From Octopus vulgaris (Eukaryota), in assembly GCA_951406725.2 (NCBI GenBank), contig OX597825.1, forward strand, positions 13,392,001 to 13,456,000: 64,000 bases of DNA. The letters run 5' to 3'. Below the pieces are notes generated by a model. It saw only the letters and a program-made list of their open reading frames with translations. It was not told where the DNA came from and made no database searches. The position numbers and the translations under genes are program-made. This document shows, in pieces, positions 1 through 63,113 of the stretch (position 1 is its first letter; each line of letters opens with the position of its first letter).

Positions 1-512
1 ATCAAAGTGGCACTTGGGTACAATTATACGAAGCCCAATGTACCCAACATGACTACCGGTCTGATAAGGGTACACCGGGTACATACATCGCAACCATATG
101 TGCGCGACATGGTGATCAAGATAAACAGCGCATGACCTTGCAGGTAGGGCCCAGTTAGAATTTTCCTGACGTTGAGTAGCCCAACCCGCTCAAAAGGTCC
201 CTGAATAAGGTTGTTTAAAACCCGTGTTTCCAAGGGCTGAATTATTCAAACCCCAAAGAAATCCTCTAAACACATGGTTATGATGCTACCCTACTAATTC
301 TACTCGTGATCAGAGATGCACATATCGTCAGCCACTAAGGAACATGCTCAACTGGTTAAGGTCAAACAAATGACAAGCAAATATGTGGTATTGAGCAGAA
401 TATTTTCTGTAGCCCATCTTTTATACCAAGACAAAACAATGTACATGATAACACTTCCAATCGGTTAAGATCAGAAGCCACGAGAGCCACTGTCTAGTAC
501 TGCATCAGAGCA
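1..512. mobile_element. Unclassified ~545-bp interspersed repeat (truncated by window start), followed by (TTA)n
   Basis: Aligns by eye over its whole length with 61631-62175 (e.g. atcaaagt..cactgggg, gcccagttagaatttt, gtagcccatcttttataccaagacaaaacaatgtacatgataacacttccaatc); both copies end in gcat + (TTA)n. Confidence 0.85.
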
Positions 513-2302: not shown

Positions 2303-2892
2303 CTTCTATCTATAAATGCTCCAATATCTATACAGCCTTGGTTTTTTTTATCTCATTACGCAAAAATTCATATACACACATGCTGATATAGAACCAACGT
2401 TGAACCCTTTATTCGCAATATTACGGAACCTGGAACTTAACTATGGTCTGTCTATAGCACTTATTCAGCTTTACCTGACACCTTTGGGTCTCAATGACAC
2501 CATTATCTCTTATATACATACATATATATGAGAGTATGTGTGTGTGTTCGTGTTAGCAAAAAGACCGCCCGCCAGCGGTTCTCTGCCAGCCACTTGGTAA
2601 TATTTCCACATTTGTTTCCCGATTCTAGTAATTCTTATGATATTTTAAGTTTAATTATTTCTTTGTATAATAGTGCTCACTCGCTTAGTAAATATTGCTT
2701 TCGTTATTTTATCACAGTCTTAATCTCTCTATTTTAAACAAACATCAAGGTAGACGTACAACGTGTAGAGTGAAAAAAAAGCCAAAAAACAGCGGCGATC
2801 ACATAAAGATATTTTAATAGTTATGGCGTATAAAACAGCCATAGCAACAGATTCATTTGATAATTCTTAGATAACGACAGAAAGGAAATAAA

Positions 2893-3846
2893 GTCGGCGA
2901 GCTGGCCGAAGCGTGAGCACGCCGGACGAAGTGCTTAGCGGTATTTCGTCTGTCGCTATGTTCTGAGTTCAAATTTCGCCGAGGTCGACTTTGCCTTTCA
3001 TCCTTTCACGGTCGAGAAATTAAGTACCAGTTACGCACTGGGGTCGATGTAATCGACTTAATCCGTTTGTCTGTCCTTTGTTTGTCCCCTCTGTGTTTAG
3101 CCCCTTGTAGGTAGTAAAGAAATGGAATTAGACATTTCGTTTGTCTTTACGTTCTGAGTTCAAATACCACGGAGGTCGACTTTGCCTTTCATCCTTTCGG
3201 GGTCGATTAAATAAGTACCAGTTACGCACTGGTGTCGAAGTAATCGACTTAATCCGTTTGTCTGTCCTTGTTTGTCCCCTCTGTGTTTAGCCCCTTGTAG
3301 GTAGTAAAGAAATAGAAATAGGTATTTCATCTGTCTTTACGTTCTGAGTTCAAATTCCGCCGAGGTCGACTTTGCCTTTCATCCTTTCGGGGTCAATTAA
3401 ATAAGTAACAGTTACGCACTGGTGTCGATGTAATCGACTTAATCCGTTTGTTTGTCCTCTCTGTGTTTAGCTCGTTGTGGGTAGTAAAGAAATAGGTATT
3501 TCGTCTGCCATTACGTTCTGAGTTCAAATTCCGCCGAGGTATACTTTGGCTTTCATCCTTTCATGGTCGATTAAATAAGTACCAGTTACGCACTGGGGTC
3601 GATGTAATCGACTTAATCCGTTTGTCTGTCCTTGTTTGTCCCCTCTGTGTTTAGTCCCTTGTGGGTAATAACGGAATAAGTATTTCGTCTGCCGTTACGT
3701 TCTGAGTTTAAATTCCGCCGAGGTCGACTTTGCCTTTCATCCTTTCGGGGTCGATAAATTTAGTACCAGTTGCGTGCTGGGGTCGATGTAGTCGACTGGC
3801 CCCCTCCCATAAAATTTCGGGCCTTGTGCCTAGAGTAGAAAAGAAT
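2893..3846 (+). mobile_element. Family-A tRNA-derived SINE tandem multimer: head + four ~165-190-bp core/tail-1 units + terminal core/tail-2 unit
   Basis: Head is ggcgagctggccgaagcgtgagcacgccgg. Each unit has a B-box-like gagttcaaattcc, the core gaggtcgactttgcctttcatcctttcggggtcgat..aagtaccagt and the tail ttgtcccctctgtgtttagccccttgt.ggtagtaaagaaat. The last unit ends in aaaatttcgggccttgtgcctagagtagaaaag. Confidence 0.9.
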
Positions 3847-4118
3847 ATATACGAGTATGTTTATGCAGATGCTTGTGTTTAATGATGAAATATATAACTC
3901 ACGTAAACTTTTTTGCGGGTGTGTATACACACACATACACGCATATACATACATACATACATACATACATACATACATACATACATAGATATACATACAT
4001 ACATTCATGCATGCATACATACATAATACATACATACATACATATACATACATACATACATAAACATACATACATACATACATACATACATACATACATA
4101 CATACATACATACATACA

Positions 4119-4151
<33 letters not shown>

Positions 4152-4370
4152 TAATAAATTTTAGGGTAGCAAAAAATTCTAGAAAAATTCTCCGCTACCA
4201 GCAGTCAAGTGAGAAAGAAAAAATAGTCAATAGACAATATAATATACATTCAAACATATAAGGGATGGTTATAATAGGATATCCGACTCACTAGAAAGAG
4301 CAGCTAAACTCCAAACCACTAATAGTTGTAATTCTGAAATGGAAAGAGAAATAAAAACGTTTACCCTCTC

Positions 4371-4466
4371 CTCTCTGGACTATGCATAGTTTCGGCAATC
4401 TTTTTGCAAATAAATTAAATTAAATTAAATTTATTTACCACTGGCGTTGCACTCATCAGCAGAAAA
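4371..4466 (-). ncRNA. Type I hammerhead ribozyme motif (intact core)
   Basis: Minus strand reads ttttctg-CTGATGA-gtgcaa..(AT-rich hairpin)..ttgcc-GAAAC-tatgcata-GTC-cagagag. Stem I is 7 bp with G:U pairs, stem III is the palindrome actatgcatagt, and the cleavage triplet is GUC. Confidence 0.8.
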
Positions 4467-4491
4467 GCCAAGGACTACCATATATTCACGA

Positions 4492-4718
4492 GGCGAGCTG
4501 GCAGAAACTTTAGCGCGCCGGGCGAAATGCTTAGCGGTATTTCGTCTGTCGTTACGTTCTGAGTTCAAATTCCGCCGAGGTCGACTTTGCCTTTCATCTT
4601 TTCGGGGTCGATAAATTAAGTACCAGTTACCCACTGGGGTCGATGTAATCGACTTAATCCGTTTGTATGTCCTTGTTTGACCCCTCTGTGTTTAGCCCCT
4701 TGTGATTAGTAAAGAAAT
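4492..4718 (+). mobile_element. Family-A SINE monomer with 17-bp target-site duplication
   Basis: Full head-core-tail-1 ending in aaagaaat; flanked by atatattcacgaggcga at 4480-4496 and 4719-4735. Confidence 0.92.
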
Positions 4719-5283
4719 ATATATTCACGAGGCGATAACGAGTATGCCTCGAGTCTATATGCTATAAATTTTCAAAATCCACCGCATTCGGTGTACATAC
4801 ATACATACAGACAGACAGACAGACAGACAGAAAAGTAGACAGACAGGTATGCAGACAACCAGATATACATACAGACGGACAGATACATAAAGAAACAAAC
4901 AGACGGGCAGACAACCAAACAGACAGACAGACAGACTGATAGACGGATAGATAGCTGGACATATATAATAGTATATGGTTGGTTTCTTCGACTGACTGTT
5001 TACATAGATTGATAAATAAGTCGGCAGAGAAGACAGATGGTTGCGAGAATAGATGATAAATAGATAGGTAAATATATATTGGAAGGTAGGTGGATATTTC
5101 GGTAGATTCCTTCGAGACAGCTTATCTAAATGCATTGATAAGTAGACAATGAATAGTCATATATATATAAAGATGTATATATATATGTATATCTATATAT
5201 GTGTGTGTGGGTGACAGAGAGAGAGAGAGAGAGAGTGTGTGTGTGTGTGTCTACGTGAGTATGTGCACGTATATATATCTGCA

Positions 5284-5321
<38 letters not shown>

Positions 5322-5398
5322 AATGCGTGTGTGGGGGTATCTATATATATCTACATCTAGATTCATATCTATCTATCTATCTATCTATCTATCTTCCA

Positions 5399-5529
<131 letters not shown>

Positions 5530-5568
5530 TGATTGATAGACATAGACATTCGAGTGTGTATGTGTGTA

Positions 5569-5612
<44 letters not shown>

Positions 5613-5769
5613 GACATACCTATTATATGCATATGCAATGAGCATGCGAATATTCATCCATCCATCCATCCATATATTGCATACTTTAGTACCGCGAGCT
5701 CCAATGTGTCCAAACTTTTTTTACAGCTGATAACACAATTTTTTTTTTATTATTTAATTTTAGATCAAA

Positions 5770-7100
5770 TTCTGAAGCGTTGTCAACGGGAAACTTATAT
5801 TCCAAGACTAAACCAGACTCTCAGTGAAGATTATTGAAATCGAAGAGTGCAGATGGGAATGATACTTGTTAAGAAATGTAGAAGATTCGTACTTTCTAGA
5901 AAAGATTGACTGGAGTGACGAAACCACATTGAAATCAAATAGCTCAATTAGCCACCATAATTGCACCTTCTAGAGTGCTGAGAATTTCAGAGGGCCGCCA
6001 TGTTAAGTTACCATTCTGTAGTTTATCATCAAAACGATTGACTGGTGATTTTATTTATTTATTTTTTTTTTTACTGTAATCTGACCAGCTCCGTTTACTT
6101 GAAGTTGCTGCGACATTGTGTCATGCTGACCATTCAAGAGAATTCGAAGATGTGGAGTTTTATTTCCAGCAAGTTCGGGCAACTCCACAGTACCCTGCAA
6201 ACATATGAGGCTACAAAGGCGGCGAACTGGCAGAAACGTTAGCACGCCGGGCGAAATGCGTAGCCGTATTTCGTCTGCCGCTAACGTCCTGAGTTCAAAT
6301 TCCGCCGAGGTCGACTTTGCCTTTTATCCTTTCGGGGGACCATTAAATAAGTACCAGTTACGCACTGGGGTCGATGTAATCGACTTAATCCGTTTGTCTG
6401 TCTTTGTTTGTCCCCTCTGTGTTTAGCCCCTTGTGGGTAGTAGAGAAATAGGTATTTCGTCTGCCGTTACGTTCTGAGTTCAAATTCCGCCGATGTCGAC
6501 TTTGCCTTTCATCCTTTCGGGGTCGATAAATTAAGTACCATTTACGCACTGGGGTCGATATAATCGGCTTAATCCATTTGTCTGTCCTTGTTTGTCCCCT
6601 CTATGCTTAGCCCCTTGTGGGCAATAAAGAAATAAGAAATGTTTACACGCCGGACGAAATGCTTAGCAGTATTTCGTCTGTCTTTACGTTCTGAGTTAAA
6701 ATTCCGCCGAGGTCGACTTTGCCTTTCATTCTTTCGTTTCGGGGCCAATAAATAAATACCGGTTTCGTACTAGGGTCGATCTAATCGACTGGTTCCCTCT
6801 CCAAAAATTTCGGACCTTGTGCCTAGGTTAGAAAGAATATTTGAGACTACATTCATGATATTTTTTTGTCAAACAAGGTGAACTGAATGAAGAAATTCAG
6901 TAGAATCCCCACCGCGTGCATATACCTCACACCACTAGGCTTTTGTTTTTAGATTTAAGGAATCTAAAACGATGAATTATACGACATAAACCGGCAAGTT
7001 TCGATGAAGTGAAACCATTATTGATTCGATGTTTCGATGAATTGAAACCATTCGATCAATTGAAAGCCATTAAAAACGAACGCACACAAATACTGAACAA
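5770..7100 (+). pseudogene. Decayed Tc1/mariner-superfamily transposase, interrupted by the SINE array at 6218-6838
   Basis: Broken translation: LKRCQRETYIPRLNQTLSED*NRRVQ..FLEKIDWSDETTLKSNSSISHHNCTF (WSDE first catalytic-Asp motif). After the SINE, tcagtagaatcccccaccgcgtgcatatacctcacaccactaggcttttg resembles the PPRSPDLTPLDF motif. Confidence 0.7.
6218..6838 (+). mobile_element. Family-A SINE trimer
   Basis: Head ggcggcgaactggcagaaacgttagcacgccgggcg, two tail-1 units, final unit with tail-2 (aaaatttcggaccttgtgcctaggttagaaag). Confidence 0.9.
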
Positions 7101-7193
7101 AATGCTTACGATTCCATTGTTTGAAGTTATTAGCAGCGCCTCCAATCAGAACAGTCATCGGTTTAAAATCAGGAGTTCATTACTATAATTAAT

Positions 7194-7634
7194 GGATCTT
7201 TTCGATTTGAACGGCAGTTTTTAAAAAATAATTTCCACGTAACTAAACACTTTTAAACTTCGTATACTGGTAAAATGTGTTTATAAAACATCTTTTTCTC
7301 TTGGCTTTTTTGAGAAAATTCTATAGTTTGTAAGATATTTGTTCTTGTTTTTCTTCAATTTCTGCAATTTCAACCAATCAATGTCGTCTATTGAGGTAAA
7401 AAAAAACATTCTGTGCCGTATGAATATGTCCCTCGTTTAAGAAACAGATTGGGTTTATTTACATTTGTGAAGAAAAAAAGATACCCTTCCCCCACCCCTA
7501 ACCCTAACTAACTCTAACCAACCCTAACCTTAAAACAGATTGAAATGCAATAGATCGATACTAGGGTCATAATTATGGGTGACAATTTCATATGACACCG
7601 CTAGAAAAAACTGCCGTTCAAACCGAAAAGATCC
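7194..7634. mobile_element. MITE with ~28-bp TIRs (GGATCTTTTCG..), probable 8-bp TSD, internal (CCCTAA)-like repeats
   Basis: ggatcttttcgatttgaacggcagttttt at 7194 and aaaaaactgccgttcaaaccgaaaagatcc ending at 7634; flanks are taattaat / taattaaa; a second partial copy lies at 42116-42255. Confidence 0.9.
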
Positions 7635-7946
7635 TAATTAAATTTTGTCTGTACATTCTATTAGACTTTGAAAAGAAAAGGTATTTGAATAAACATTCAA
7701 TACATGTCTACATATGTTTGGTAGACTCGTCTCCTAACGTCTGATGTAAAAGGATGTGTCCAACACGCCTAGGAAACTTTCAGTCAAGTGGAGATAAGCC
7801 AAGAGTGTTATTATAAATATACGTAATTCCGACCAAATGTGTTGAATGCTACTTTCTTTCGTTTGTCCACACACTCAAGAATACGAGTGTATGTGTGTGT
7901 GTGTTTGTGTATGTTATATATACATACATGTACATACACACGTATA

Positions 7947-8148
7947 CAGAGTTCGCTAAAATAACGTATACACACTTTAGGAAAGGAAAAAATCTGTATA
8001 AATATTTTAATTCAGTGTTATTGCAATATATTCAGTGCTGATAAAACATGGAAAGCGGTGTCTATATTTATAGAGGTATCTACACAAGTTAAATATTTAC
8101 ACAGATTTTTTCCTTTCCTCAAGTGTGTATACACTTTTGGCGTGGACT
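7947..8148. mobile_element. Tc1/mariner-type MITE with ~55-bp imperfect TIRs in TA context
   Basis: gtatacacactttaggaaaggaaaaaatctgtataaatatttt versus aaatatttacacagattttttcctttcctcaagtgtgtatac; TA flanks. Confidence 0.7.
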
Positions 8149-8165
8149 ATATATATATATATATA

Positions 8166-8321
8166 TGGATCTTTCCTTTTCCTATGTTTCTGATGAAGAG
8201 CTCCGCTCGAAACGTTAAACTCTCCTTCTTCCCTTCCTTCCTGAGCGTCCAATAACACTATACTTGTTCCACGTCCTCGCATTGTTGTGTTTTCTCTTTG
8301 TGTTTTCATGTTCGGATTAAC

Positions 8322-8322
<1 letters not shown>
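8166..8322 (+). mobile_element. Short hammerhead-bearing element (Penelope-like solo terminal repeat, family P1) in (TA)n
   Basis: Near-identical to 40954-41107; contains the hammerhead at 8186-8220; ends in ggattaac+(TA)n. Confidence 0.75.
8186..8220 (+). ncRNA. Minimal type I hammerhead ribozyme motif
   Basis: gttt-CTGATGA-a-gagc-tcc-gctc-GAAAC-GTT-aaac: canonical core, 4-bp stems I and II, stem III reduced to the palindrome ACGT as described for Penelope-associated hammerheads. Confidence 0.75.
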
Positions 8323-8401
<79 letters not shown>

Positions 8402-8477
8402 TATAATTAAGGAGAGGAGAAAGCAAATTCGATTTCAGTAATCTTCACTGAGAGTCTGGTTTAGTCTTGGAATATAG

Positions 8478-8918
8478 GAACGTAAAGACAGACAAAATAC
8501 CCATTTCTTTACTACCCGCAAGGAGGCTAAACACAGAGAGGACAAACAAGGACAGACAAAGGGATTAAGTCGATTACATCGACCCCAGTGCGTAACTGGT
8601 ACTTATTTAATCGACCCCGAAAGGATGAAAGGCAAAGTCGACCTCAGCGGAATTTGAACTCAGAACATAAGGACAGACGAAATGCCTATTTCTTTACTAC
8701 CCACAAGGGGCTAAACACAGAGAGGACAAACAAGGACAGACAAACTGATTAAGTCGATTATATCGACCCCAGTGCTTAACTGGTACTTAACTTATCGACC
8801 CCGAAAGGATGAAAGGCAAAGTCGACCTCGGCGGAATTTGAACTCAGAACGTAACGGCAGACGAAATACTGCTAAGCATTTTCGCCCGGCGTGCTGACGA
8901 TTCTGCCAGCTCGCCGTC
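8478..8918 (-). mobile_element. Family-A SINE dimer plus partial third unit
   Basis: Reverse complement of the head (ctgccagctcgcc) at ~8903-8915 and two core/tail-1 units. Confidence 0.9.
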
Positions 8919-9057
8919 TTATATTTCTCTGCAGTCCCACATAATCCAAAACCGTAACGTGTCATTCACACCCAATTGTACCTCAACGACAATTCCACCG
9001 CCAACACATTACACCATGCCGCCTTCTCATGGCATTCCACTATGACACACCCTACAC

Positions 9058-10384: not shown

Positions 10385-10789
10385 CTCTTTTACTCTTTTA
10401 CTTGTTTCAGTCATTTGACTGCGGCCATGCTGGAGCACCGCCTTTAGTCGAGCAAATCGACCCCGGGACTTATTCTTTGTAAGCCCAGTACTTATTCTAT
10501 CGGTCTCTTTTGCCGAACCGCCAAGTAACGGGGACATAAACACACCAGCATCGGTTGTCAAGCAATGCTAGGGGGACAAACACAGACACACAAACACACA
10601 CACACACACATACATATATATATATACGACAGGCTTCTTTCAATTTCTGTCTACCAAATCCACTCACAAGGCATTGGTCGGCCCGGGGCTATAGCAGAAG
10701 ACACTTGCCCAAGATGCCACGCAGTGGGACTGAACCCGGAACCATGTGGTTGTTTAGCAAGCTACTTACCACACAGCCACTCCTGCGCC
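10385..10789 (-). mobile_element. Full-length family-B SINE (tRNA head, CORE-like gcaccttgggcaagtgtc, internal microsatellite, tail)
   Basis: Reverse complement of ggcgcaggagtggctgtgtggtaagtagcttgc..ggttccgggttcagtccc; internal (TA)/(TG) tract; tail ..gactgaaacaagtaaaagag. Confidence 0.92.
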
Positions 10790-10900
10790 TATATATACAA
10801 ATAATTATGAGGAATTAAAACGAATTTAACTTCCAAGCATAATTGAAGAATAATTTTATTCTGTGCGTTTATAAGAACGGAAAATTAAAATATAAAGATA

Positions 10901-11255
10901 TAGGTGTAGGAGTGGCTGTGTGTTAAGTAGCTTGCTTACGAACCACATGGTTCCGGGTTCATTCCCACTGCATAGCACCTTGGGCAACTGTCTTCTACTA
11001 TAGCCTAGGCCGGCCAAAGACTTGTGAGTGGATTTGGGAGACGGAAACTGAAAGAAGCCTGTTGTATATATGTATATATATATTATGCGTGTGTGTATGT
11101 GTGTCTGTGTGTCTGTGTTTGTCCCTCCAATATCGCTTGACAACCGATGCTGGTGTGTTTACGTCTCCTAACGTAACGGTTCGGCAAAAGCGACGGGTAG
11201 AATAAATACTAGGCTTACAAACAATACGTCTGAAACAAGTAAAAGACTAAAAGTG
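10901..11255 (+). mobile_element. Family-B SINE, head-to-head with 10385-10789
   Basis: ggtgtaggagtggctgtgtgttaagtagcttgc..ggttccgggttcattccc..; tail partly deleted. Confidence 0.9.
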
Positions 11256-14765: not shown

Positions 14766-15206
14766 AATATAAGAGAGTGGTCACTATATGGCTCACTCTA
14801 GCACCAGTTAATCCAAAAGGTTTCAACCACAAAAATACATGTTTCCCATGAAAGTCAGTACGATTGTTAGCTCACACGGACAGGGCAAATAAAAAATAAC
14901 AAAAATACAGATTATTTTGGGACAATTGTTTCGCTATTAATGAATTAAATGTAATATTACTTACAAAAAATCCACTTGTAGCTCCTCAGCCAAAACTATC
15001 AGGATGAAATCCACTCAATCACACGCCAGACTTTACCATAACGATAAATACACGTGTGGTTCAATTGATTACATCCGTTGCCCTGTCCGTGTGAGCTAAC
15101 AATCGTACTGACTTTCATGGGAAACATGTATTTTTGTGGTTGAAACCTTTTGGATTAACTGGTGCTAGAGTGAGCCATATAGTGACCACTCTCTTATATT
15201 TATTTT
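14760..15206 (-). mobile_element. Foldback element: perfect 129-bp inverted repeats around a 189-bp spacer carrying a hammerhead; Penelope-like inverted terminal-repeat structure in (TA)n
   Basis: 14760-14888 is the exact reverse complement of 15078-15206; (TA)n on both sides. Confidence 0.8.
14915..14995 (-). ncRNA. Type I hammerhead ribozyme motif (intact)
   Basis: Minus strand reads ttttgg-CTGAGGA-gcta..(42-nt loop)..tagc-GAAAC-aatt-GTC-ccaaaa. Stem I is 6 bp, stem II is 4 bp, stem III is the palindrome acaattgt, triplet GUC. Confidence 0.85.
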
Positions 15207-24070: not shown

Positions 24071-24554
24071 TCAGCATCAGCACCGCCGCCGCCACCACCA
24101 TCAGCAGTAACAACACATAAACTACAACATCGCCTAATCAATCGTTTTTGTTGTTGTTGTTATTTATTACTGAAGGTCGATCTGATTGAACCCTCACCAC
24201 CACCACCACCAACACCACCGCCACCACGACCACCACCAACACCACCACTACCTCCCCTCAGTAATTACTGGACAGGAGCCAAAATCGTAAAGATGTTACT
24301 ATTATTGTTATTCATCTGATGTCCCTGTGGCAAATACACAAAAAAAAAATTAAACAAAAATACAAAAAATAAACATAGCCACAGCATCATCGTTATTTAT
24401 TTATTTATATTTTGGCTGAGATCGATTTTTGACTTTCATTATATTCGGGAGGTGGGGGGGGGGTCGATAAAATAAGTACCACCCAGGGATCGAAGTAATT
24501 CATTAATTTTTGTCCCCGCTAAAATTGCTGGTCTTGTGCCTGCAGTAGAAAGGA

Positions 24555-24598
<44 letters not shown>

Positions 24599-24669
24599 TA
24601 TTATCATTATTATCATTATTACTTGCTTCGGCAGTACAAATACTAAAATTGGAATTATTATTATTATCA

Positions 24670-24733
<64 letters not shown>

Positions 24734-24776
24734 CATTATTATTATTATGAAAAAATATTTTATTATTATCATTATT

Positions 24777-24942
24777 AGTGGCAGAATCGTTAGCAAGCCG
24801 GACAAAATGTTTAGTGGTTATTTCGTCTATCGTTACGTTCTGATTTCAAATTTCGCCGAGGTCGACCTTTACCTTTCATCATCTCAGGGTCGATAAACGA
24901 AATACCAGTTTAACACTGACTTTGTGCCAAAATTTGAAACCA

Positions 24943-24996
<54 letters not shown>

Positions 24997-25325
24997 GTGG
25001 CGGAGTCGTTAGCAACGTCGGGCGAAAATGCTTTACGTTCTGAGTTCAAATTCTGCCGAGGTCGATCGACCTTTGCCTTTCATCCTTTACGGAGATCGAT
25101 AAATTAAGTACCAGTGAAACACTGGGGGGAAGTCGATGTGATTGATCGACTAGTCCACCCCCCCACACACACACACACACACACAAACACACACATCCTC
25201 CCATCAAATTTCAAGGCCCTGTGCTTTTCGGTAGAAAGGACCAGTTACGTACGCACCTGAGGCGGGGGTGTCGATGTAATCGACTTAATCCCTTCCCACC
25301 AAGTTGCCCTTGTGGCAAAAATTTG
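24777..25325 (+). mobile_element. Cluster of diverged family-A SINE copies interleaved with (ATT)n
   Basis: gtggcagaatcgttagcaagccggac..gaggtcgacctttacctttcatc and a second copy from 24997. Confidence 0.8.
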
Positions 25326-25327
25326 AA

Positions 25328-25401
25328 ATCATCATCATCATCATCACCATCACCATCACCATCACCATCATCATCATCATCACCATCACCATCACCATCA
25401 C

Positions 25402-28165: not shown

Positions 28166-28350
28166 ATCTTTTTTTTTTAAGTGTTTCTGTGATACACGAT
28201 TCCTTTTTTTATTTTATTTTCTTCTTCTCTCGATCCCTTTTGATCGAAATCTTACATTTATTTTCCTTTTTCTTCCACCCTCGAAAAGAAAAGCTCTACA
28301 TTTGTATTTGTCCCCTCTGTATTCAGCCCTGTGTGGCTAATAAAAGAAAG
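28165..28350 (+). mobile_element. 5'-truncated Tx1-like LINE 3' UTR inserted in (TCTA)n
   Basis: cgatcccttttgatcgaaa..gaaaagaaaagctctacatttgtatttgtcccctctgtattcagccctgtgtggctaataaaagaaag matches 62940-63113; (TCTA)n on both sides. Confidence 0.85.
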
Positions 28351-28861: not shown

Positions 28862-28973
28862 CTGTCTATCAATTTGCTTATCTAATCTATCTGTCTATCT
28901 CTCCGTCTGTCAGACTGTCTGTCTGACTGTCTGTATTGTCCCCTCTGTGTTCGGCCCTGCGTGGTTAAAAAAG

Positions 28974-29008
<35 letters not shown>

Positions 29009-29123: not shown

Positions 29124-29287
29124 TTTTGCTTCTTTTCCCTTTTTTTCTTTTTTTTCTTTTTTCCCTTTTACGATCCCTTTTGATCGAAAACCTACGCCAC
29201 TTTTTTTTTTCTTCATCCCCCAAAAGAAAAGCTCTACCTTGTAATTTGTCCCATCTGTGTGCAGCCCTGTGTGGCCAATAAAGAAAC
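29124..29287 (+). mobile_element. 5'-truncated Tx1-like LINE 3' UTR inserted in (TCTA)n
   Basis: Same 3' UTR motifs ending gccctgtgtggccaataaagaaac; (TCTA)n on both sides; a ~40-bp tail-only copy also lies at 28933-28975. Confidence 0.85.
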
Positions 29288-33352: not shown

Positions 33353-33566
33353 ACTTAGATAAACTTAGATATTTTTCGACCAAAGATTGGTCCAGACCAT
33401 GTCCAACTTAATAGCACCACCTGATAGGATTATCTAAATTTTGTTTAAGTCAAGTTTTGCGGTATCGTGTTCCATTCAAGTAGGGAGTTCTTGTTGAGTG
33501 AGTTGTGTCCAGGTATGGCAAAAATGTCATTCGTAACTCGCTGGAACCTACGAATGACATTTTTGA

Positions 33567-33710
33567 GGACGACTTTGCCTTTCATCCTTTCGGGGTCGAT
33601 AAATTAAGTACCAGTTACGCACTGGGGTCGATATAATCGACTTAATTCGTTTGTCTGTCCTTGTTTGTCCTCTCTGTGTTTAGCCCCTTGTGGGTAGTAA
33701 AGAAATAGGT
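33567..33710 (+). mobile_element. 5'-truncated family-A SINE (core + tail-1)
   Basis: gactttgcctttcatcctttcggggtcgataaattaagtacc..gccccttgtgggtagtaaagaaat. Confidence 0.9.
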
Positions 33711-34274
33711 ATGGGTGGCTTATCTGGTATTCCTTGAAGAAATATATATACACACACACATATGAATGCATTATGTACAAGCATACACGCATACGTAATA
33801 CATACATAAATACACACACACATGCACACATACACACACACGTGTATGTCGAATCCGCTGCGTGGAAACTTAGATAACAATCGCGTTTCGTAACCTCAGA
33901 TCGATTTAATCACTCTATAAGTGAATTTGGTTTGTCGGAATTTTAGCTGTCATTCAAAGAACCATCCTAATGCTTATAACATTGCGGAAAATGGAATCAT
34001 CGTTGGGAAAGTACATGAAGGTTGTCTGTGAAAATACTCAACGGCTTCGACTAAAACTGGTCGATTGGTTGAATGACACAGGGATATTCTTCGTTGTTGG
34101 AAATCTACGGGGTTCCATGCGTATGTGTGTGTGTGTGTGTGTTTGATGTATTTTCATTTTGGTTTAGCAGAATCATAATACACACGCACAGACACACACA
34201 CAAACACATACAGGCACATACATACACACGTGCAGAAAGATAAACTGACAGACAAGATAGATAGACAGACAGAT

Positions 34275-34347
<73 letters not shown>

Positions 34348-34348
<1 letters not shown>

Positions 34349-34510
34349 TTTTTTTATTGCCCACAAAGGGCTAAACATAGGACAAAGACAGACAAAGGGA
34401 TTAAGTCGATTACATCGACCCCAGTGCGTAACTGATACTTTATTTATCGACCCCGAAAGGATGAAAGGCAAAGTCGACCTCGGCGGAATTCAAACTCAGA
34501 ACGTAGCGGC

Positions 34511-34512
<2 letters not shown>
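34348..34512 (-). mobile_element. Family-A SINE with tail-1 abutting (GATA)n
   Basis: (GATA)n-tttttattgcccacaaagggctaaaca..gaaaggatgaaaggcaaagtcgacctcggcgg..-(GACA)n(GATA)n. Confidence 0.9.
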
Positions 34513-36201: not shown

Positions 36202-36380
36202 AGGCGAAGGAGTGGCTGTGTGGTAAGTAGTTTGCTTACCAACCACATGGTTCCGGGTTCAGTCCTACTGTGTGGCACCTTGGGCGAGTGTCTTCTACTA
36301 TAGCCTCGGGCCGACCAAAGCCTTGTGAGTGGATTTGGTAGACGGAAACTGAAAGAAGCCCGTCATATATATATGTATAC

Positions 36381-36475
<95 letters not shown>

Positions 36476-36685
36476 GTGTATCTGTGTTTGTCCCCCCAAC
36501 ATCGCTTGATAACCGATGCTGGTGTTTTTACGTCCCCGTAACTTAGCGGTTCGGCAGAAAGAGGCTCGATAGAATAAGGACTAGGCTTACAACGAAGAAT
36601 AAGTCCTGGGGGTCTATTTGATTCGGCTAAAGGCCTGTGCTCCAGCATGGCCGCGGTCAAATGACCTGAAACAACTAAAAGAGAA
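36202..36685 (+). mobile_element. Full-length family-B SINE with internal (TG)n
   Basis: ggcgaaggagtggctgtgtggtaagtagtttgc.. to ..ccagcatggccgcggtcaaatgacctgaaac. Confidence 0.92.
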
Positions 36686-37178
36686 CAGATGTCTCTGGAA
36701 AAACATGGCTATGTCATGCGGGTGAATGATTTTCGATCATGGATTTGTGCCACTGCGATCGACCCGGGGTTAAATGATGACAGCGACGATGACAACGATG
36801 ACGATATCACTAACAACAATAACAATTAACGATGACAGAATTCTCGCTGTTACCAATTTTTGTGTTGTAGAATAGATTATCACACATGTTCTTTCGTGGT
36901 CTCCGCTCCAAATAAATACTCGGCCGTGTACGAAGGAAGGAAACCAGCGCGCAAGCGCTCACTGAGATACACACGCACTCAGGTACGCACGCACGCACGC
37001 AGACACACATGCATATAGGCGTTTGTGTGTGTGTTTGTGTGTGAGTGCGCTGTGTTTTCATATCTGTTTAATACGTGATGCTGTGAGTACATGTATGTGT
37101 ATGCATATATTTATGATTCTATATTGTATCCGAGGAGCGTATGTACGTATGCATCTAGTTTATCGATCGATACATATT

Positions 37179-37795: not shown

Positions 37796-37887
37796 AATAG
37801 CAGTCAAAACTTGACTCTAAAACCACATTAAATGTTCATATATATGAACATTTAATGTGGTTTTAGAGTCAAGTTTTGACTGCTATT
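37796..37887. repeat. Perfect 92-bp spacerless palindrome
   Basis: 37796-37841 is the exact reverse complement of 37842-37887, centred on catatatatg. Confidence 0.97.
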
Positions 37888-42115: not shown

Positions 42116-42345
42116 GGATCTTTTCGGTTTGAACGGCAGTTTTTAAAAATAATTTCTAGTTAACTAAGCACTTTTAAACTTCGTATACTGGTAGAATGTG
42201 TTTATAAAACATCTTTTTCTCTTGGCTTTCTTGAGAAAATTCTATAGTTTGTAAGGACTTATTCTATCGCTTTCTTTTGCCGAACCTCTAAGTTACGGGG
42301 ACGTAAACACACCAGCATCGGGTATCAAACACAGACACACAAAGA
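42116..42345. mobile_element. Left end of the GGATCTTTTCG MITE fused to a - strand family-B SINE fragment
   Basis: 42116-42255 matches 7194-7335, then switches to gacttattctatcg..gccgaacctctaagttacggggacgtaaacacacc. Confidence 0.85.
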
Positions 42346-50441: not shown

Positions 50442-51093
<652 letters not shown>

Positions 51094-51671: not shown

Positions 51672-52024
51672 GCACATATGTATTATATAAGACACCGTGA
51701 AACAGAATGCCGACTGATGCATCTTCGAAACTTGTTTGTTACAGTATTCTTCACATTACATTCAGATTAGGTTTCAGTCCCGACACGTGTTTCTAGTGCA
51801 TAAATATCCCGATGTCCCTCGATATAGCGTTTATATGCGTTCAGATGTTCCAGCTGTAGGATATGTTCATCCAGTATACACCTATCTATGACAGTTTTAT
51901 CGAAGGCTGTACCTGTTCGGGTTGCTGGAACGTGAGTATATACATATACATACACACATACATACATACATACATACATACATACATACATTGAATACAT
52001 ACATACATGAATACATACATACAT

Positions 52025-52400
52025 GACTGTGTGGTAAGTAGCTTGCTTACCAACCACATGGTTCCGAGTTCAGTCCCACTGCGTGGCATCTTGGGCAACT
52101 ATCTTCTACTATAGTCTCGGGCCTACCAAAGCCTTGTGAGTGGATTTGGTAGACGGAAACTGAAAGAAACCCGTCGTATATATACATATATGCATGTGCA
52201 TGTATATGTTTCTATGTGTGTGTGCCCCAACATCGCTTGGCAACCGATGCTGGTGTGTTTACGTCCCCGTAACTTAGCGGTTCAGCAAAATAATAGAATA
52301 AGTACTAGGCTTACAAACAATAAGTCCTGGGGTCGACTTGCTCGACTAAAGGCAGTGCTCCAGCATGGCCACAGTCAAAATGACTGAAACAAGTAAAGAG
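52025..52400 (+). mobile_element. Family-B SINE
   Basis: ctgtgtggtaagtagcttgcttaccaaccacatgg.. to ..gactgaaacaagtaaagag. Confidence 0.92.
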
Positions 52401-54282: not shown

Positions 54283-54321
<39 letters not shown>

Positions 54322-54322
<1 letters not shown>

Positions 54323-54955
54323 GGCGCAGGTGTGGGTTTGTAGTAAGAGGCTTGCTTTCCAACCACAAGGTTCCGGGTTCAGTCCCATTGCGTGGCACCT
54401 TGGTCAAATGTCTTCTTCTATAGCCTCAGACCGACCAATGCCTTGTGAGTGGATTTGGTAGACGGAAACTGAAAGAAGCCTGTCATATATATACATATAT
54501 ATGTGCGTGTGCGTGTGTGTGTTTGTGTTTGTGTGTCTGTGTTGTCTCCTACCATCACTTGACAATCAATGTTGGTGTGTTTACGTACCCGTAACATAGC
54601 GGTTCAGCAAAAGAAACCCGGTAGAATAAGTACTAGGCTTACAAAGAATAAGTCCTGGGATCGATTTGTTCGACTAAAAGCGGTGCTCCAGCATGGCCGC
54701 ATCCAAATGACTGAAACAAATAAAAGAATATACGGGATATGTGTGTGTCTTTCTATGTTTGTCTCACTAGACCTTTTGACAACCGGTGTTGGTGTGTTTA
54801 CGTCTCCGTAACTTAGCGGTTCGACCAAAGAGATCGATAGAGTAAGTACCATGCTTTAAAAAAAAATATTGGGGTCGTTTCATTCGGTTAAAATCAATCT
54901 TCAAGCTGGTGCGCCAGCATGGCCGAAGTGTAATGACTGAAACAAGTAAAAGATA
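54322..54955 (+). mobile_element. Family-B SINE with duplicated tail segment
   Basis: Full copy 54322-54728, second tail 54770-54955. Confidence 0.88.
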
Positions 54956-56475: not shown

Positions 56476-57035
56476 CTTTTCTGCTCTAGGCACAAAGCCC
56501 GAAATTTTTTGGGGGAAGGGGGCCAGTCGATCAGATCGACCCCAGAACGCATCTGGTACTTAATTTATCGAGGTCGAAAAAATAAAAAGCAAAGTCGACC
56601 TCAGCGGAATTCGAACTCAGAACGTAAAGACAGATGAAACTGGAAGAAGCCTGGCGTATATATATTTGTGTGTGTGTGTGTGTGTTTGTCCTCCCAGCTA
56701 CCGTCACTTAACAACCGATGCTGGTGTGTTTTTGTTCCCGTACCTAGCGGTTTGGCATAAGTGACCGTTAGAATAAGTACTAGGCTTCTTCGACTGACAT
56801 CCTTTGAGGCGGTGTTCCAGCATGGCCGCAGTCAAATGACTGAAACGCATAAAAGAACACGCACGCACACACATACATACACACACGACGAGTTTCCACT
56901 AAATTCACTTACAAAGCATTTGGCTTGGCCATAGACTCTGGTAGAAGACACTTGCCAAAGTTGCCGCGCAATGGGTTGAACCCGAAACCCCATGGCTGCA
57001 AATCGTGCTTCTTAACCGCGCGGCTATGCCTGCTC
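56476..57035. mobile_element. Nest of SINE fragments: family A (- 56476-56640), family B (+ 56640-56860; - 56890-57035)
   Basis: Diagnostic motifs of each family. Confidence 0.8.
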
Positions 57036-59161: not shown

Positions 59162-61368
59162 CATGCGAGTCTGTGCGTGCGTGCGTGTGGTGTGGTGTGG
59201 TGTGGTGGTGGTGATGTTGGTGATGGTGGTGGTGGTGGTGGTGGTGGTGGTATGTGTGTGTGATAAGCAATACAAACTGCAGATATTCCATCGTGGCGAG
59301 AAATAGTTTCGTACGCGTTGGGACAATCTCCAGACTAAATCCTTTATTTGCAACATCTTTTACAGCATGTTATTTGCGAAAAACTGAACCATTTCCGTTT
59401 TTGCCATAATGAATAAGAGAGCTATTTTATCTTAATCGAACAATGCACCACCAGACCTACCGTAAAAATATATATACGTCAACGACAGATGAGAATAAAC
59501 GAAAGCAACAATAAAAACCAAAGAGATATGTAAAATAAAATCGATGCCTGGGTCCGCATATATGTGTGAGTTTTTGTGTCTTTTTAAGGATGATGCTAAA
59601 GATGGTATTCCAATTGTTGTAACAGACGCGCATTAAAATTACTGAATTTTCTGAAAATATTATACCCGGTTTTCAGATAGAGGAAATGGTTACGCATGTT
59701 TTTCAGGATAAGTTTTTCTCTGCTGTACAAAGATTACGTCTTTCATTTCCGTTTTTGTAAGGGATTTAATCTATCAATAATGTTACATTTGGTATTATGA
59801 TTGGCGGCTTTTTTCTTTTAATTTCCAGATGGAACCGACTAATTTTGTCATAAGTCACTTTTCACTTTTAAATGTATCTTTAAAAAGCAAAAGACGTATT
59901 ATTGTAAATTGTAACAACTTCGCTCAGTCATGCCTGTATAGCTTTTACGTAGTACTTAGTGTTTTACTGTTATAATTGATAGCGTTTGGGTTACGAGACT
60001 CTCTTTTAGTGGTTATATGTTAGTGCTTCTCTTTGGAGCATAGGGCCTCAATTTCTAGCAGCAGCATCAATTTTCTCATGAGAAGAAGATGCTAGCCCCG
60101 CACTCAGCCTTTTTTCATTTCTAGAGAAAAGAATGTTGTCGTAGATTTCAACTCAGACTGCAAGAGATAGTAAAAGATAGGCTAAGGCATTTTATCCGAC
60201 GCTGTAACAATTTTACAATTGCGCCATATTTAAAGCATATCTTGGTAGATTATGGATGGAAAATAACGATTGATTATTGACCTGTCTGGTCTGTGACCCA
60301 AAACTATTTAAGTCTAAATAATAACTATTAAAACATCATCAATATTAAAGGCAGTGAGCTTAGTGAAGGCAGGGCCGGTTCGCAAAGGATGACATTTTTA
60401 TAAGAACATCTTATGTATAAACCTGCATAGGCACGGCGGGGCCCGGAATAGGGGAATCGTTAGAGCGTCGGACAAACGGCATTTCTACCTGCTTATTATG
60501 TTCTGAGTTCAATTTAAGGTAAGGCCGACATTGACTTGCATTTCTTTTTTATTTTTTGCGATGTTGATGAAATAAACACCAGTGAAATACTGCTGGCCTT
60601 GTGCCAAAATTAAAAAGTATTATTTTTTAACGAAACAAAATAATACAAATTTTGTGGAATAGAACGGTAGAGAGTAACAAAAAAAAAAGGAAATTATACC
60701 CAAATATGTATCTGGTACAGTATGTTATCGACCCAACCACCAACCATCCCTATCAGATTTCTCAGGCTTAGGAAAATAGGTCAAATTTCTTGTATTTCAT
60801 TCTTCTAGTGTCAATAAACGAAGCACTAATCATTTGTACTAAGAAGCTGTCGATCGAATCGACTCTTACCTGCAAACGCAACGAATTTGTTTCTGGCCGC
60901 ACGCCAATACGAAAACAAAAAACTCATTATATTATGGAAGATACTTATCTCAACACATGTAAACCTGTGTTTACATGACACCCTTTACACTCAACACACA
61001 TTTCAACCAGTTGTCATTTTTATCCCGTACAGAACACTCGTCATTAAACACTTCCCTGTCATCGTTGTTCGAGACGAACACGCACGTTTGCTTGTTACAT
61101 ATAGTTACATAGTCACTTTACATAAAATGTGTCCGTGTGTGTGTACATTCGGCATTCAACGTACATTAAGAGAACCGAAAGACTTATAAAGCACGCTGCT
61201 GAACACGTGTCACCATCTGTTGCATGCATTTAATAACGCATGTTAACCTCTATCACAAAGATTTAGACATACTTCAACATATGTCGCCAAGTTAGCTACA
61301 TAGACAATACGCTAGTAAAGCAAGTGCCGTTGTTTGCTCGCCGTTGCTTTATATCATTATTATTATTA

Positions 61369-61630: not shown

Positions 61631-62175
61631 TAGTGCATGCCATCAAAGTGACACTGGGGTAAAATATATGAAGCCCAGTATACCCATCATGACTACCCGT
61701 CTGATAAGAGTACACTAGACACATGCATCACAACCATATGTGTGTGACATGGTGATCTCATATCAAGATAAACAGTGCATGACCTTGCAGGTGAGGCCCA
61801 GTTAGAATTTTCTTCAGGTCGAGTAACCCATCCCACTCAAAAGGTCCTTGAATAAGGGTTGTTTAAGGATGTTGAACGAAACATCCATGTTTCCTTAGGT
61901 GAATTATCCAAACTCCAAAGAATCCCTCTCAACACATGGCTATGATGCTCCCCCACTACTTCTCCTCGTGATCAGAGATGCACATATCGTCAGCCGCTAA
62001 GGGACATGCTCAACTGGTTAAGGTCAAACAACTGACAAGCAAATCTGTGGTATTGAGCAGAATATTTGCTGTAGCCCATCTTTTATACCAAGACAAAACA
62101 ATGTACATGATAACACTTCCAATCAGTGAAGATCAGAAGCCACGAGAGCCACTGCCTGGTACTGCATCAGGGCAT
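61631..62175. mobile_element. Unclassified ~545-bp interspersed repeat between (GA)n and (TTA)n
   Basis: Second copy of 1-512. Confidence 0.85.
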
Positions 62176-62188
62176 TATATGATTATTA

Positions 62189-62232
<44 letters not shown>

Positions 62233-62258
62233 TATTATTATTATTATTATTATTATAA

Positions 62259-62471
62259 GGCGGCAAACTGGCAGAATCGTTAGTACGCCAAGCAAAGTGC
62301 TTAGTGGCATGTCATCCGTCGCTACGCTCTTGACTTCAAATTCCGCCGAGGTCGACTTTGCCTTTCATCCTTCGGGGATGATAGATTAAGTACCAGCTGC
62401 GTACTGGGTTCGATCTAATCGACTGTCCCCTATCCCCCAAAATTTCGGGCCTTGTGCCTAGAGTAGAAAAG
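62259..62471 (+). mobile_element. Family-A SINE monomer with tail-2, inserted in (ATT)n
   Basis: ggcggcaaactggcagaatcgttag..aaaatttcgggccttgtgcctagagtagaaaag; (ATT)n on both sides. Confidence 0.9.
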
Positions 62472-62547
62472 ATTATTATTATTATTATTATTATTATGTG
62501 TGTGCGCATGCGTGTTGTCTGTCTATCTATCATCTATCTATCTATCT

Positions 62548-63113
62548 CAACCGGGAAGGCAAGGCAGTTTTCATCGTACTTGTGGCCATGGTGAAAGAAT
62601 GTGTGTGGTGGACTCGAGCGAAAGGATTAGAGACAAACACTTACCTCTCTGGCCAATCGCTCATCAACTTTTTCAAGTACCACTTGAAAAGGAAGGTGAG
62701 AATGGAGAGGCAGGTTTTGTCTCGGGAAAGTTTCAAAAAAAGGTGGGTGAATGTAGCAAAGATGGTGCGTGCGAGTCACGAAACCACTTTGAACATGCTC
62801 CTGTAAATCGTAAAAGAGACAGAGAGAGCACTTTGCTCTCATGTGTTTATTTTTCTCCCTGCCTGAGGTTACCGTGGTATTTTCTATAGGCTTTTCTTTC
62901 CACGAATGAACCTAATCTTGTTTCTTACTTTTCTAAAAAATTTATTTTTGTGATACAGGATCCCTTTTGAACGCCTTTTTTTTCGATCTCTTTTGATCGA
63001 AATTTTACATTTCTTTCTTTTTTTCCCTTTTTCTTTTTCCATCTTCGAAAAGAAAAGCTCTACATTTGTATTTGTCCCTTCTGTGTTCAACCCTGTGTGG
63101 CCAATAAAGAAAG
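62548..63113 (+). mobile_element. 5'-truncated Tx1-like (L1-clade) LINE: ORF2 C-terminus (62548-62806) + 3' UTR, inserted in (TCTA)n
   Basis: Open frame NREGKAVFIVLVAMVKECVWWTRAKGLETNTYLSGQSLINFFKYHLKRKVRMERQVLSRESFKKRWVNVAKMV..* with the K..(I/V)W..R and F...W motifs typical of Tx1/L1 ORF2 ends; the 3' UTR matches five other copies; (TCTA)n on both sides. Confidence 0.8.

What the first reader, a model, noticed from the sequence alone, without database searches (positions are those of the whole stretch)
4480..4735. Family-A SINE shares its 3' tail with the Tx1-like LINE: candidate LINE/SINE partnership
Seen: SINE tail-1 ttgtttgtcccctctgtgtttagccccttgtgggcaataaagaaat closely matches the LINE terminus ttgtatttgtccc(c/t)tctgt(g/a)ttca(g/a)ccctgtgtggccaataaagaaa. 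The monomer here ends exactly at that terminus with a 17-bp TSD, and the copy at 34348-34512 has this tail running into (GATA)n like the LINE. Known: stringent-type SINEs borrow the 3' end of their partner LINE; the usual partners are CR1/L2/RTE/I clades. Inference: this SINE is mobilised by a Tx1-clade LINE, an uncommon pairing, apparently with relaxed target specificity.
Basis: partly seen in the sequence, partly recalled or inferred. Interest (0 to 1): 0.75.

Follow-up and report, generated by a model that had tools for sequence, protein, structure and literature searches.

The report
Octopus SINE borrows Tx1-like LINE tails
A short parasitic repeat in octopus-like DNA ends in the same 42-base signal as a microsatellite-targeting retrotransposon of the L1/Tx1 group, and its alternative tail matches a sister retrotransposon, suggesting these elements recognise a specific RNA hairpin rather than a poly(A) tail.

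Summary
The shared tail is real. A profile of the window's LINE ends hits 6 LINE copies and all 11 tail-1 SINE units (E<=3e-4), and nothing else below E 1.5; identity is 32-35/42. The 17-bp TSD is real but overlaps the SINE head by 5 bases. The LINE's 86-aa remnant is 70% identical to a full APE-RT-zf ORF2 of the L1/Tx1 group; 5 of 6 copies run into (TCTA)n against 1.2% background. Tx1 membership is likely but was not tested against a named reference. Corrections: the quoted tail is a minority variant (2 of 11), and only 2 of 11 tail-1 units are clean 3' ends, so 'relaxed specificity' is barely testable. New here: the SINE's other tail (tail-2/3) matches the 3' terminus of a sister LINE lineage in both directions, and a 4-bp stem with a 5-base loop covaries across SINE and LINE tails. 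Best reading: a tRNA-like SINE swapping tails between related Tx1-like partners. I found no tail-sharing SINE/Tx1 pair in print; Repbase and Dfam were unavailable. Mobilisation itself is inferred.

The parts
4492..4718 (+). Family-A SINE monomer: tRNA-like head, conserved core, tail-1
4480..4496 (+). 5' copy of the 17-bp target-site duplication (last 5 nt shared with the SINE head)
4719..4735 (+). 3' copy of the target-site duplication
4676..4717 (+). Tail-1, 42 nt, 32/42 identical to the LINE terminus; 2 of 4 hairpin pairs broken in this copy
2896..3845 (+). Array A: head, four core+tail-1 units, last unit core+tail-2
6221..6838 (+). Array B: head, two core+tail-1 units, then a 5'-clipped tail-2 SINE
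8478..8915 (-). Array C: head, two core+tail-1 units, about 25 nt of a third unit
33565..33712 (+). Tail-1 SINE fragment ending a few bases into the next unit's start
34349..34510 (-). 5'-truncated tail-1 SINE inside a (TCTG)n/(TCTA)n tract, same orientation as the LINE copies
62546..63112 (+). Longest LINE remnant: 86-aa ORF2 C-terminus (62546-62806), 3' UTR and terminus, flanked by (TCTA)n on both sides
28170..28349 (+). LINE 3' fragment in (TCTA)n
28932..28975 (+). 44-nt LINE 3' fragment between (TCTG)-like and (TC)n repeats
29125..29286 (+). LINE 3' fragment in (TCTA)n
50549..50770 (-). LINE 3' fragment running into (TCTA)n
50800..51090 (-). LINE 3' fragment, head-to-tail with the previous copy; 5' limit approximate
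62256..62472 (+). Full tail-2 SINE between (ATT)n tracts; its tail is the best hit of the sister-LINE terminus profile
56477..56639 (-). 5'-truncated tail-2 SINE
24411..25330 (+). Cluster of older family-A SINEs with tail-2/tail-3 ends among (ATT)n/(ATC)n
60498..60612 (+). Old family-A SINE with a tail-3 hairpin

Best explanation
Family A is a tRNA-like SINE of an octopod genome that parasitises a lineage of Tx1-like LINEs through a stringent-type 3' signal. SHOWN: tail-1 is homologous to the last 42 nt of a (TCTA)n-associated LINE whose ORF2 belongs to the L1/Tx1 group; tail-2/3 resemble the 3' terminus of a sister lineage; all carry a C-rich run followed by a 4-bp stem and 5-base loop, whose pairs change in compensation. 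INFERRED: an older tail-2/3 SINE replaced its tail with a short 5'-truncated piece of the (TCTA)n LINE or of a sister subfamily, by template switching or nested insertion. The LINE ORF2 then bound the hairpin in SINE RNA and inserted copies by target-primed reverse transcription, leaving 11-17 bp duplications and sometimes using (TCTA)n. Many tail-1 units were multiplied afterwards, or carried passively, as head-to-tail arrays, so unit number overstates independent tail-1 insertions.
For: Tail-1/LINE identity and profile specificity. ORF2 remnant 70% identical over 71 aa to P0141, which has APE, RT and zf-RVT domains; P0141 is 73% identical in the RT to an Argonauta hians protein. P0141 scores 326 bits against a fish element with a ZCCHC3-type/CCHC ORF1 and 175 bits against human L1 ORF2. 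LINE copies: 5 of 6 followed by (TCTA)n against 1.2% background, with tracts also on the 5' side of differently truncated copies. A long TSD on the monomer. One SINE copy inside the LINE's microsatellite, in its orientation. An HMM made only from 21 distinct termini of fetched sister LINEs hits 7 tail-2/3 ends at 6.8-19.5 bits; 20 shuffles reach at most 5.9. Seven upstream control slices give no hit below E 0.84. In reverse, 86 of 86 tail-2 HMM hits in the fetched loci lie on the LINE terminus. The two LINE lineages are sisters at 100/99 support. Hairpin: 88.8% of 116 cells paired, 21 cells with two-sided change, 0 of 500 shuffles as high, slid controls 27-52%; RNAalifold predicts the same stem.
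Against: Only 2 of 11 tail-1 units are clean 3' ends, and arrays A and B end in tail-2. SINE-LINE tail identity (76-83%) is below LINE-LINE identity (86-93%). Single tails fold no better than shuffles: z from -1.9 to +1.4 in 12 of 12. The window LINE breaks one of the four pairs in the common register (all 6 unpaired cells at pair 10-20 are C-C or C-U, five of them the window LINE rows), and the monomer breaks two. The hairpin alignment was cut around a motif I had seen by eye, and its rows are related. The sister-LINE termini come from one assembly, and no body of that lineage was found in the window. The sister-LINE profile does not hit tail-1, and the window-LINE profile does not hit the sister termini significantly (E>=2.8). 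Tail-2/3 ends lie by (ATT)n/(ATC)n in 4 of 9 cases against 3.1% background, which could point to another LINE clade. No named Tx1 reference was in the tree.
Confidence: 0.65

Rival explanations
1. Passenger tail. A short 5'-truncated LINE fragment once landed in or behind a family-A SINE and was then spread as an internal module of tandem arrays, by unequal recombination or as part of transcripts ending in tail-2. The (TCTA)n LINE rarely or never mobilises tail-1 SINEs.
For: 8 of 11 tail-1 units are followed by more SINE sequence, mostly at one fixed junction, and arrays A and B end in tail-2. 44-nt solo LINE fragments exist (28932-28975). Similar SINE arrays are described in bivalves and attributed to recombination (PMC11481361, passages).
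Against: The monomer ends at the shared terminus with a long TSD, and a truncated copy sits in (TCTA)n in the LINE's orientation. Tail-1 keeps a pairing stem with compensatory changes relative to tail-2, which a neutral passenger need not do.
Confidence: 0.2
2. Tail-1 is from the Tx1-like LINE, but tail-2/3 belong to another clade such as Dong/R4; their match to the sister LINE ends is convergence on a C-rich run plus a short hairpin, or the LINE captured a SINE end. This rival concerns tail-2 only and is compatible with the tail-1 pairing.
For: 4 of 9 tail-2/3 ends run into (ATT)n/(ATC)n. Dong-R4 is the most numerous recently active LINE in O. vulgaris (PMC13282606 Table 1); its (TAA)n targeting is recalled, not checked. 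The match covers about 33 nt at 82-85% and stops about 20 nt short of the LINE's AATAAA; L001 alone is not significant against tail-2.
Against: Reciprocal profile specificity, negative control slices, and the motif's fixed place 18-22 nt before AATAAA in 8 of 8 sister LINE copies checked.
Confidence: 0.3
3. The LINE is an L1-superclade element outside Tx1 proper, so the pairing is SINE/L1-group rather than SINE/Tx1.
For: No named Tx1 in the tree. No RRM or ZCCHC3 domain was detected in sister ORF1s, and BLASTP against the fish ORF1 is not significant.
Against: Microsatellite preference, CCHC-knuckle ORF1 in sister families, a U1 snRNA-inserted element at 37% RT identity just outside the clade, and the bit-score contrast with human L1.
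Confidence: 0.12
4. Chance similarity of two pyrimidine-rich, microsatellite-like ends.
For: The tail is short and low in complexity, and the monomer's local score (34-37) is not far above the shuffle maximum (29-31).
Against:: 0 of 5000 shuffles in each test, a clean gap between real and background hits in a microsatellite-rich window, and coincident termini.
Confidence: 0.02

Closest known systems
SINEU / Tx1-Mar of crocodilians (PMC4494074; parts 1-4 of 5 of the main text read)
   Same: A SINE thought to be mobilised by Tx1-clade LINEs, with weaker target preference in some SINE families (23% and 13%, against 90% for SINEU-3), tandem insertions and TSDs.
   Different: SINEU has snRNA heads and poly(A) tails, and no LINE sharing the SINEU-1 3' terminus was found; the link rests on shared targets. 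Here the link is a shared 42-nt terminus and the head is tRNA-like.
Stringent-type SINE/LINE pairs (Table 1 of PMC3747384, read; ZfL2 stem-loop work, PMC4176376, passages)
   Same: A short LINE-derived 3' tail with a stem-loop in which the loop is conserved and the stem can vary.
   Different: Listed partners are L2, CR1, RTE, I, Vingi, Crack, Rex1, Tad1, R4, RandI and L1. No Tx1 is in the table, and only 3 SINEs with L1-clade tails were found, all in plants or a green alga.
Kibi, Koshi and crocodilian microsatellite-targeting Tx1 families (PMC4494074)
   Same: L1/Tx1-group LINE inserted in a microsatellite.
   Different: Reported targets are (TC)n, (TTC)n, (TTCC)n and (TTTC)n; here (TCTA)n. 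No SINE partner is described for them in the text read.
Bivalve HCD SINEs with several LINE partners and tandem arrays (PMC11481361; section 13 and passages)
   Same: Mosaic tail exchange, tail homology of 35-61 bp at 72-95% identity, and arrays with a full head only on the first unit.
   Different: Partners are CR1-Zenon, Nimb, L2 and CR1; the word Tx1 does not occur in that paper. In those arrays the inner units have truncated tails, whereas here they carry a complete different tail.
Octopus tRNA-derived SINEs OK/OR1/OR2 (Ohshima and Okada 1994; seen only as a citation in PMC3531059 and PMC4758252; the names OK and OR1 are recalled) and the tRNA-Deu class (PMC8967140 passages; PMC13282606 supplement rows)
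   Same: An abundant tRNA-like SINE in octopus; family A is probably one of these.
   Different: The passages read assign no LINE partner.

Membership tests
Tx1 clade LINE | ORF2 with APE endonuclease, RT and C-terminal zinc-binding domain (L1 group layout) | tested here: met
   By proxy: P0141, 70% identical over 71 aa to the window remnant, has Exo_endo_phos, RVT_1 and zf-RVT. The window itself holds only the last 86 aa.
Tx1 clade LINE | RT groups with reference Tx1 elements and apart from L1 in a phylogeny | tested here: inconclusive
   The tree of 48 of 49 RT regions has no named Tx1 or L1 reference. 326 bits to a fish ZCCHC3-type element against 175 bits to human L1 ORF2 favours Tx1 but is not a placement.
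Tx1 clade LINE | ORF1 with RRM and CCHC knuckle (type I variant) | tested here: inconclusive
   Sister families only: zf-CCHC 21.3 bits in L007 (cut-off 20.8) and 18.6 in L001; no RRM detected; BLASTP to the fish ORF1 not significant. PMC5203782 (passages) calls such ORF1 variants consistent with Tx1.
Tx1 clade LINE | Target-sequence preference | tested here: met
   5 of 6 copies followed by (TCTA)n, background 1.2%, binomial 1.5e-9 (two of the copies are adjacent, so not fully independent). 4 of 6 passed the 5' tract test at my boundaries; a fifth has the tract 14 nt further out.
tRNA-derived SINE | Head with Pol III A and B boxes derived from a tRNA | tested here: inconclusive
   A-box pattern in 4 of 5 heads (not in the monomer); strict B-box pattern in 0 of 5, though a one-base variant is visible. 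No ARAGORN or Rfam tRNA hit.
tRNA-derived SINE | Short, non-coding, interspersed, multi-copy | tested here: met
   About 230-nt monomer. The core HMM gives 26 hits at E<=0.01, of which about 20 are followed by a recognisable tail.
tRNA-derived SINE | Target-site duplication | tested here: met
   1 of 8 SINE loci tested has a complex TSD (the monomer); one more is flanked by (ATT)n on both sides; 6 have none above 5 bp.
tRNA-derived SINE | Transcription by RNA polymerase III | not testable with these tools
   Needs RNA data or an assay.
Stringent-type SINE/LINE pair | Shared 3'-terminal sequence ending at the same point | tested here: met
Stringent-type SINE/LINE pair | Conserved stem-loop in the shared tail | tested here: inconclusive
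   Covariation supports a 4-bp stem; single-sequence folding does not beat shuffles; the window LINE needs a bulge or a 6-base loop.
Stringent-type SINE/LINE pair | Overlapping periods of activity | tested here: inconclusive
   Divergence ranges overlap (2.6-9.1% for 11 SINE cores; 4.1-17.8% for 5 LINE ends; a sixth, 30.4%, included flank columns), but on about 75 columns each.
Stringent-type SINE/LINE pair | Tail required for mobilisation by the cognate ORF2 | not testable with these tools
   Needs a retrotransposition assay.
Octopus OK/OR1/OR2 SINEs | Sequence identity to the published consensus | not testable with these tools
   SINEBase supplements could not be read.

The most novel reading that the evidence does not exclude
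A major octopus SINE family depends wholly on one Tx1-like LINE lineage and has swapped tails between sister LINEs with different targets, (TCTA)n for tail-1 and (ATT)n/(ATC)n for tail-2/3, keeping one hairpin with a conserved 5-base loop. This would be an animal L1-superclade LINE using stringent 3' recognition, supporting the idea that poly(A)-only recognition by mammalian L1 is derived, and would make Tx1-like elements a main engine of the octopus SINE expansion.
Probability: 0.4. Interest if true: 0.75.

Novelty: new variant of a known kind. Interest (0 to 1): 0.55.

Why it matters
L1-group LINEs are the exception among LINEs: over 800 families but only 3 SINEs with L1-derived tails, all in plants or algae (PMC3747384). 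Whether the ancestral L1-group element was stringent or relaxed is an open proposal in that paper. A tail-sharing SINE and a conserved terminal hairpin in an animal Tx1-like lineage give a direct test of it. SINEs make up 11.6% of the O. vulgaris genome (PMC13282606), and the octopus papers I read name no mobiliser. Tail exchange between sister LINEs with different microsatellite contexts would also show how a SINE changes where it inserts.

Tried and rejected
(1) The idea that the array junction inside the SINE is a degenerate (TCTA)n target: rejected; it ranked 6th, 16th and 17th of about 215 positions in three copies. (2) A DNA motif scan of genome contigs for the shared tail found 0 matches. 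(3) Rfam: only simple-repeat noise in 2800-9000 and nothing in 4470-4740; ARAGORN found 0 genes. (4) Pfam: 0 families for the 86-aa remnant. (5) Names for relatives: cluster look-ups and homolog searches returned no 'Tx1' label. (6) Sister ORF1 against the fish ORF1: not significant. (7) Single-strand folding of 12 tails: none clearly better than shuffles. (8) Family-A SINE bodies or the window LINE's 3' UTR in the 66 fetched loci: none beyond T-rich runs. Loci against the window gave 85 rows; the 40 printed were simple repeats. (9) The (ATT)n-ending 550-bp repeat as tail-2 donor: no open frame on the plus strand and no tail-2 HMM hit. (10) Monomer flanks are not part of another repeat in the window. 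(11) Literature: 10 searches listed no paper whose title or abstract reports a tail-sharing SINE/Tx1 pair. Most hits were seen only as listings. Subscription papers, Repbase, Dfam, the viral and metagenome contig collections, bioRxiv supplements and the SINEBase supplements were not searched. PMC5786205, PMC5753468, PMC3472496, PMC4758252, PMC8967140 and PMC3531059 were seen as passages; PMC10702118 as abstract only; PMC13282606 as part 1 of 3 plus supplement rows.

Full report
SOURCE. The window is microsatellite-rich animal DNA at about 37% GC. The one coding remnant of interest matches an Octopus bimaculoides protein at 92% over 43% of its length, and its full-length relative is 73% identical in the RT to an Argonauta hians protein. 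The source is therefore most likely an octopod (inference).

THE SINE. The element at 4492-4718 belongs to a family with 26 core-profile hits in the window. Its head has an A-box-like motif in 4 of 5 copies and a near-canonical B box; neither ARAGORN nor Rfam calls a tRNA. After the core come alternative tails. Tail-1 occurs in 11 units at 6 loci. Eight run directly into more SINE sequence, one is ambiguous, and two are clean ends: the monomer and the copy at 34349-34510. Arrays A (2896-3845) and B (6221-6838) start with a full head, repeat core plus tail-1, and end in a unit with tail-2 and tail-2-type core bases. The monomer is flanked by a 17-bp repeat at 4480-4496 and 4719-4735. Five of those bases are also the SINE head, so the duplication is 11-17 bp; 2 of 3000 control pairs reach 17. 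It is the only complex TSD among 8 SINE loci tested.

THE LINE. Six 3' fragments are present, of 44 to 567 nt. Only the longest keeps coding sequence, 86 aa, which has no Pfam hit. It found 136 relatives. The best cluster contains P0141, 1111 aa with APE, RT and zf-RVT domains, 70% identical over 71 aa. P0141 scores 326 bits against a fish element with ZCCHC3-type and CCHC ORF1 domains, 175 against human L1 ORF2, and 81 or less against R2. Sister families have a CCHC-knuckle ORF1, but no RRM was detected. An element at 37% RT identity just outside the clade sits between two U1 snRNA copies. Five of 6 window copies run into (TCTA)n against a background of 1.2%, and differently truncated copies have the tract on the 5' side too, which argues for a target rather than a tail repeat. 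Target preference is a Tx1 hallmark (PMC4494074). It therefore works like a Tx1 element; formal membership is untested because no named reference was available.

THE SHARED TAIL. Over 42 gap-free bases, SINE and LINE ends are 32-35/42 identical; the background maximum in the window is 25. No shuffle of 5000 reached the observed local score in any of 4 tests. A profile of LINE ends separates 17 true ends (E<=3e-4) from the rest (E>=1.5). The match stops at the same last base in both elements. LINE copies resemble each other more (36-39/42) than they resemble the SINE, so the true donor may be an unsampled sister subfamily, or the tail is older than these copies. Divergence ranges overlap, on small numbers.

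TARGETING. One of 6 tail-1 loci, or 1 of 2 clean ends, lies in (TCTA)n in the LINE's orientation; chance is 0.07 or 0.024. This is modest support for a shared endonuclease. It cannot establish relaxed specificity, because most units are array-internal. The array junction does not resemble the LINE target.

BEYOND THE FINDING. A scan of genome contigs returned 66 loci, 62 of them head-to-tail LINE arrays in contigs CAXXMW01. Their ORF2s are sister to the P0141 branch at 100/99 support. Their 3' ends carry a C-rich run, a short hairpin and, 18-22 nt later, AATAAA. I noticed by eye that this resembles tail-2 and then tested it. An HMM of the 21 distinct termini gave 9 window hits at E<=10; the top 7 are all tail-2/3 ends of family-A SINEs (6.8-19.5 bits; shuffles at most 5.9; reversed window 3.5). 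Seven upstream slices of the same UTRs gave no hit below E 0.84. In reverse, 86 of 86 hits of a tail-2 HMM in the fetched loci fall on the LINE terminus, in 50 loci. The limits: the test was post hoc, the termini come from one assembly and mostly one family, the match stops short of the LINE's end, L001 alone is not significant, and no body of this lineage lies in the window. Tail-2/3 ends also adjoin (ATT)n/(ATC)n in 4 of 9 cases against 3.1%, so a different partner clade remains possible.

HAIRPIN. Across 30 ends (29 distinct) from tail-1, tail-2/3 and both LINE lineages, a 4-bp stem with a 5-base loop pairs in 88.8% of cells, and three of four pairs show two-sided changes. None of 500 shuffles scored as high, and slid controls pair at 27-52%. 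RNAalifold finds the same stem. Against this, single tails fold no better than shuffles, the rows are related, and the window LINE fits only with a bulge or longer loop. In stringent L2 elements the loop gives specificity and the stem can be exchanged (PMC4176376, passages), which is the pattern seen here.

MECHANISM. Shown: homology of tail-1 to the LINE end; a target-site duplication; microsatellite preference of the LINE; resemblance of tail-2/3 to a sister lineage's end. Inferred: capture of the tail by template switching or nested insertion, recognition of the hairpin by ORF2, target-primed insertion of SINE RNA, and later multiplication of units into arrays. Confidence is about 0.95 that tail-1 is LINE-derived, 0.85 that the LINE is Tx1 proper, 0.65 that this lineage mobilised tail-1 SINEs, and 0.55-0.6 that tail-2/3 come from the same lineage.

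WHAT IS KNOWN. Tail sharing between SINEs and LINEs is textbook, as are tail exchange and tandem SINEs in molluscs (PMC11481361). Tx1-driven SINEs are proposed for crocodilian SINEU, without a shared tail (PMC4494074). The table of pairs in PMC3747384 has no Tx1 entry. Ten searches of the held library showed no report of a tail-sharing SINE/Tx1 pair. Repbase, Dfam, the 1994 octopus SINE paper and the SINEBase supplements could not be seen and may already record the family or the pairing.

VERDICT. A real feature and a new variant of a known kind. Interest 0.55; 0.75 if the whole family proves to depend on stringent Tx1-like partners.

Noticed in passing
L001-L060, L063, L065 (contigs CAXXMW010000002-18): Contigs titled as a bacterial MAG consist of head-to-tail arrays of near-intact Tx1-like LINEs with about 6.4-6.8 kb period, up to about 10 retrieved copies per contig. 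This is probably eukaryote contamination in a species-representative genome, and an unusual tandem organisation.
   Followed up: partly
L062:897-1060 and 7822-7998: A Tx1-like element lies between a full U1 snRNA gene and a 5'-truncated U1 copy, suggesting a U1-targeting family; also in a record titled as a bacterial MAG.
   Followed up: partly
window 2896-3845, 6221-6838, 8478-8915: SINE arrays with a fixed junction about 45 nt into the head; two end in a different tail and one ends about 25 nt into a further unit. Origin unexplained.
   Followed up: partly
window 24411-25330, 62256-62472: Tail-2/3 SINEs cluster in (ATT)n/(ATC)n tracts (4 of 9 ends against 3.1% background).
   Followed up: partly
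window 1-512 and 61642-62195: A 550-bp repeat ending in (ATT)n with no open frame on the plus strand; possibly a LINE 3' UTR or non-autonomous element.
   Followed up: partly
window 10385-10790, 10905-11230, 36203-36690, 52016-52400, 54309-54735 and others: A second abundant SINE-like family (about 15 copies) with an internal (TA)n/(TG)n tract; a CORE-like motif is recalled, not tested.
   Followed up: no
window 7194-7625 (partial copy near 42116): MITE-like element with terminal inverted repeats of about 30 bp.
   Followed up: no
window 37796-37887: A near-perfect palindrome of about 90 bp.
   Followed up: no
window about 14770-14890 and 15078-15200: An inverted duplication of about 120 bp of otherwise unique sequence.
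   Followed up: no
window 5796-5844 and 8428-8476: A 49-bp sequence present twice in opposite orientation, one copy close to the end of array C.
   Followed up: no
window 50549-51090: Two LINE 3' fragments head-to-tail, separated by a short (TCTA) tract and about 20 nt, consistent with repeated insertion at one target.
   Followed up: partly
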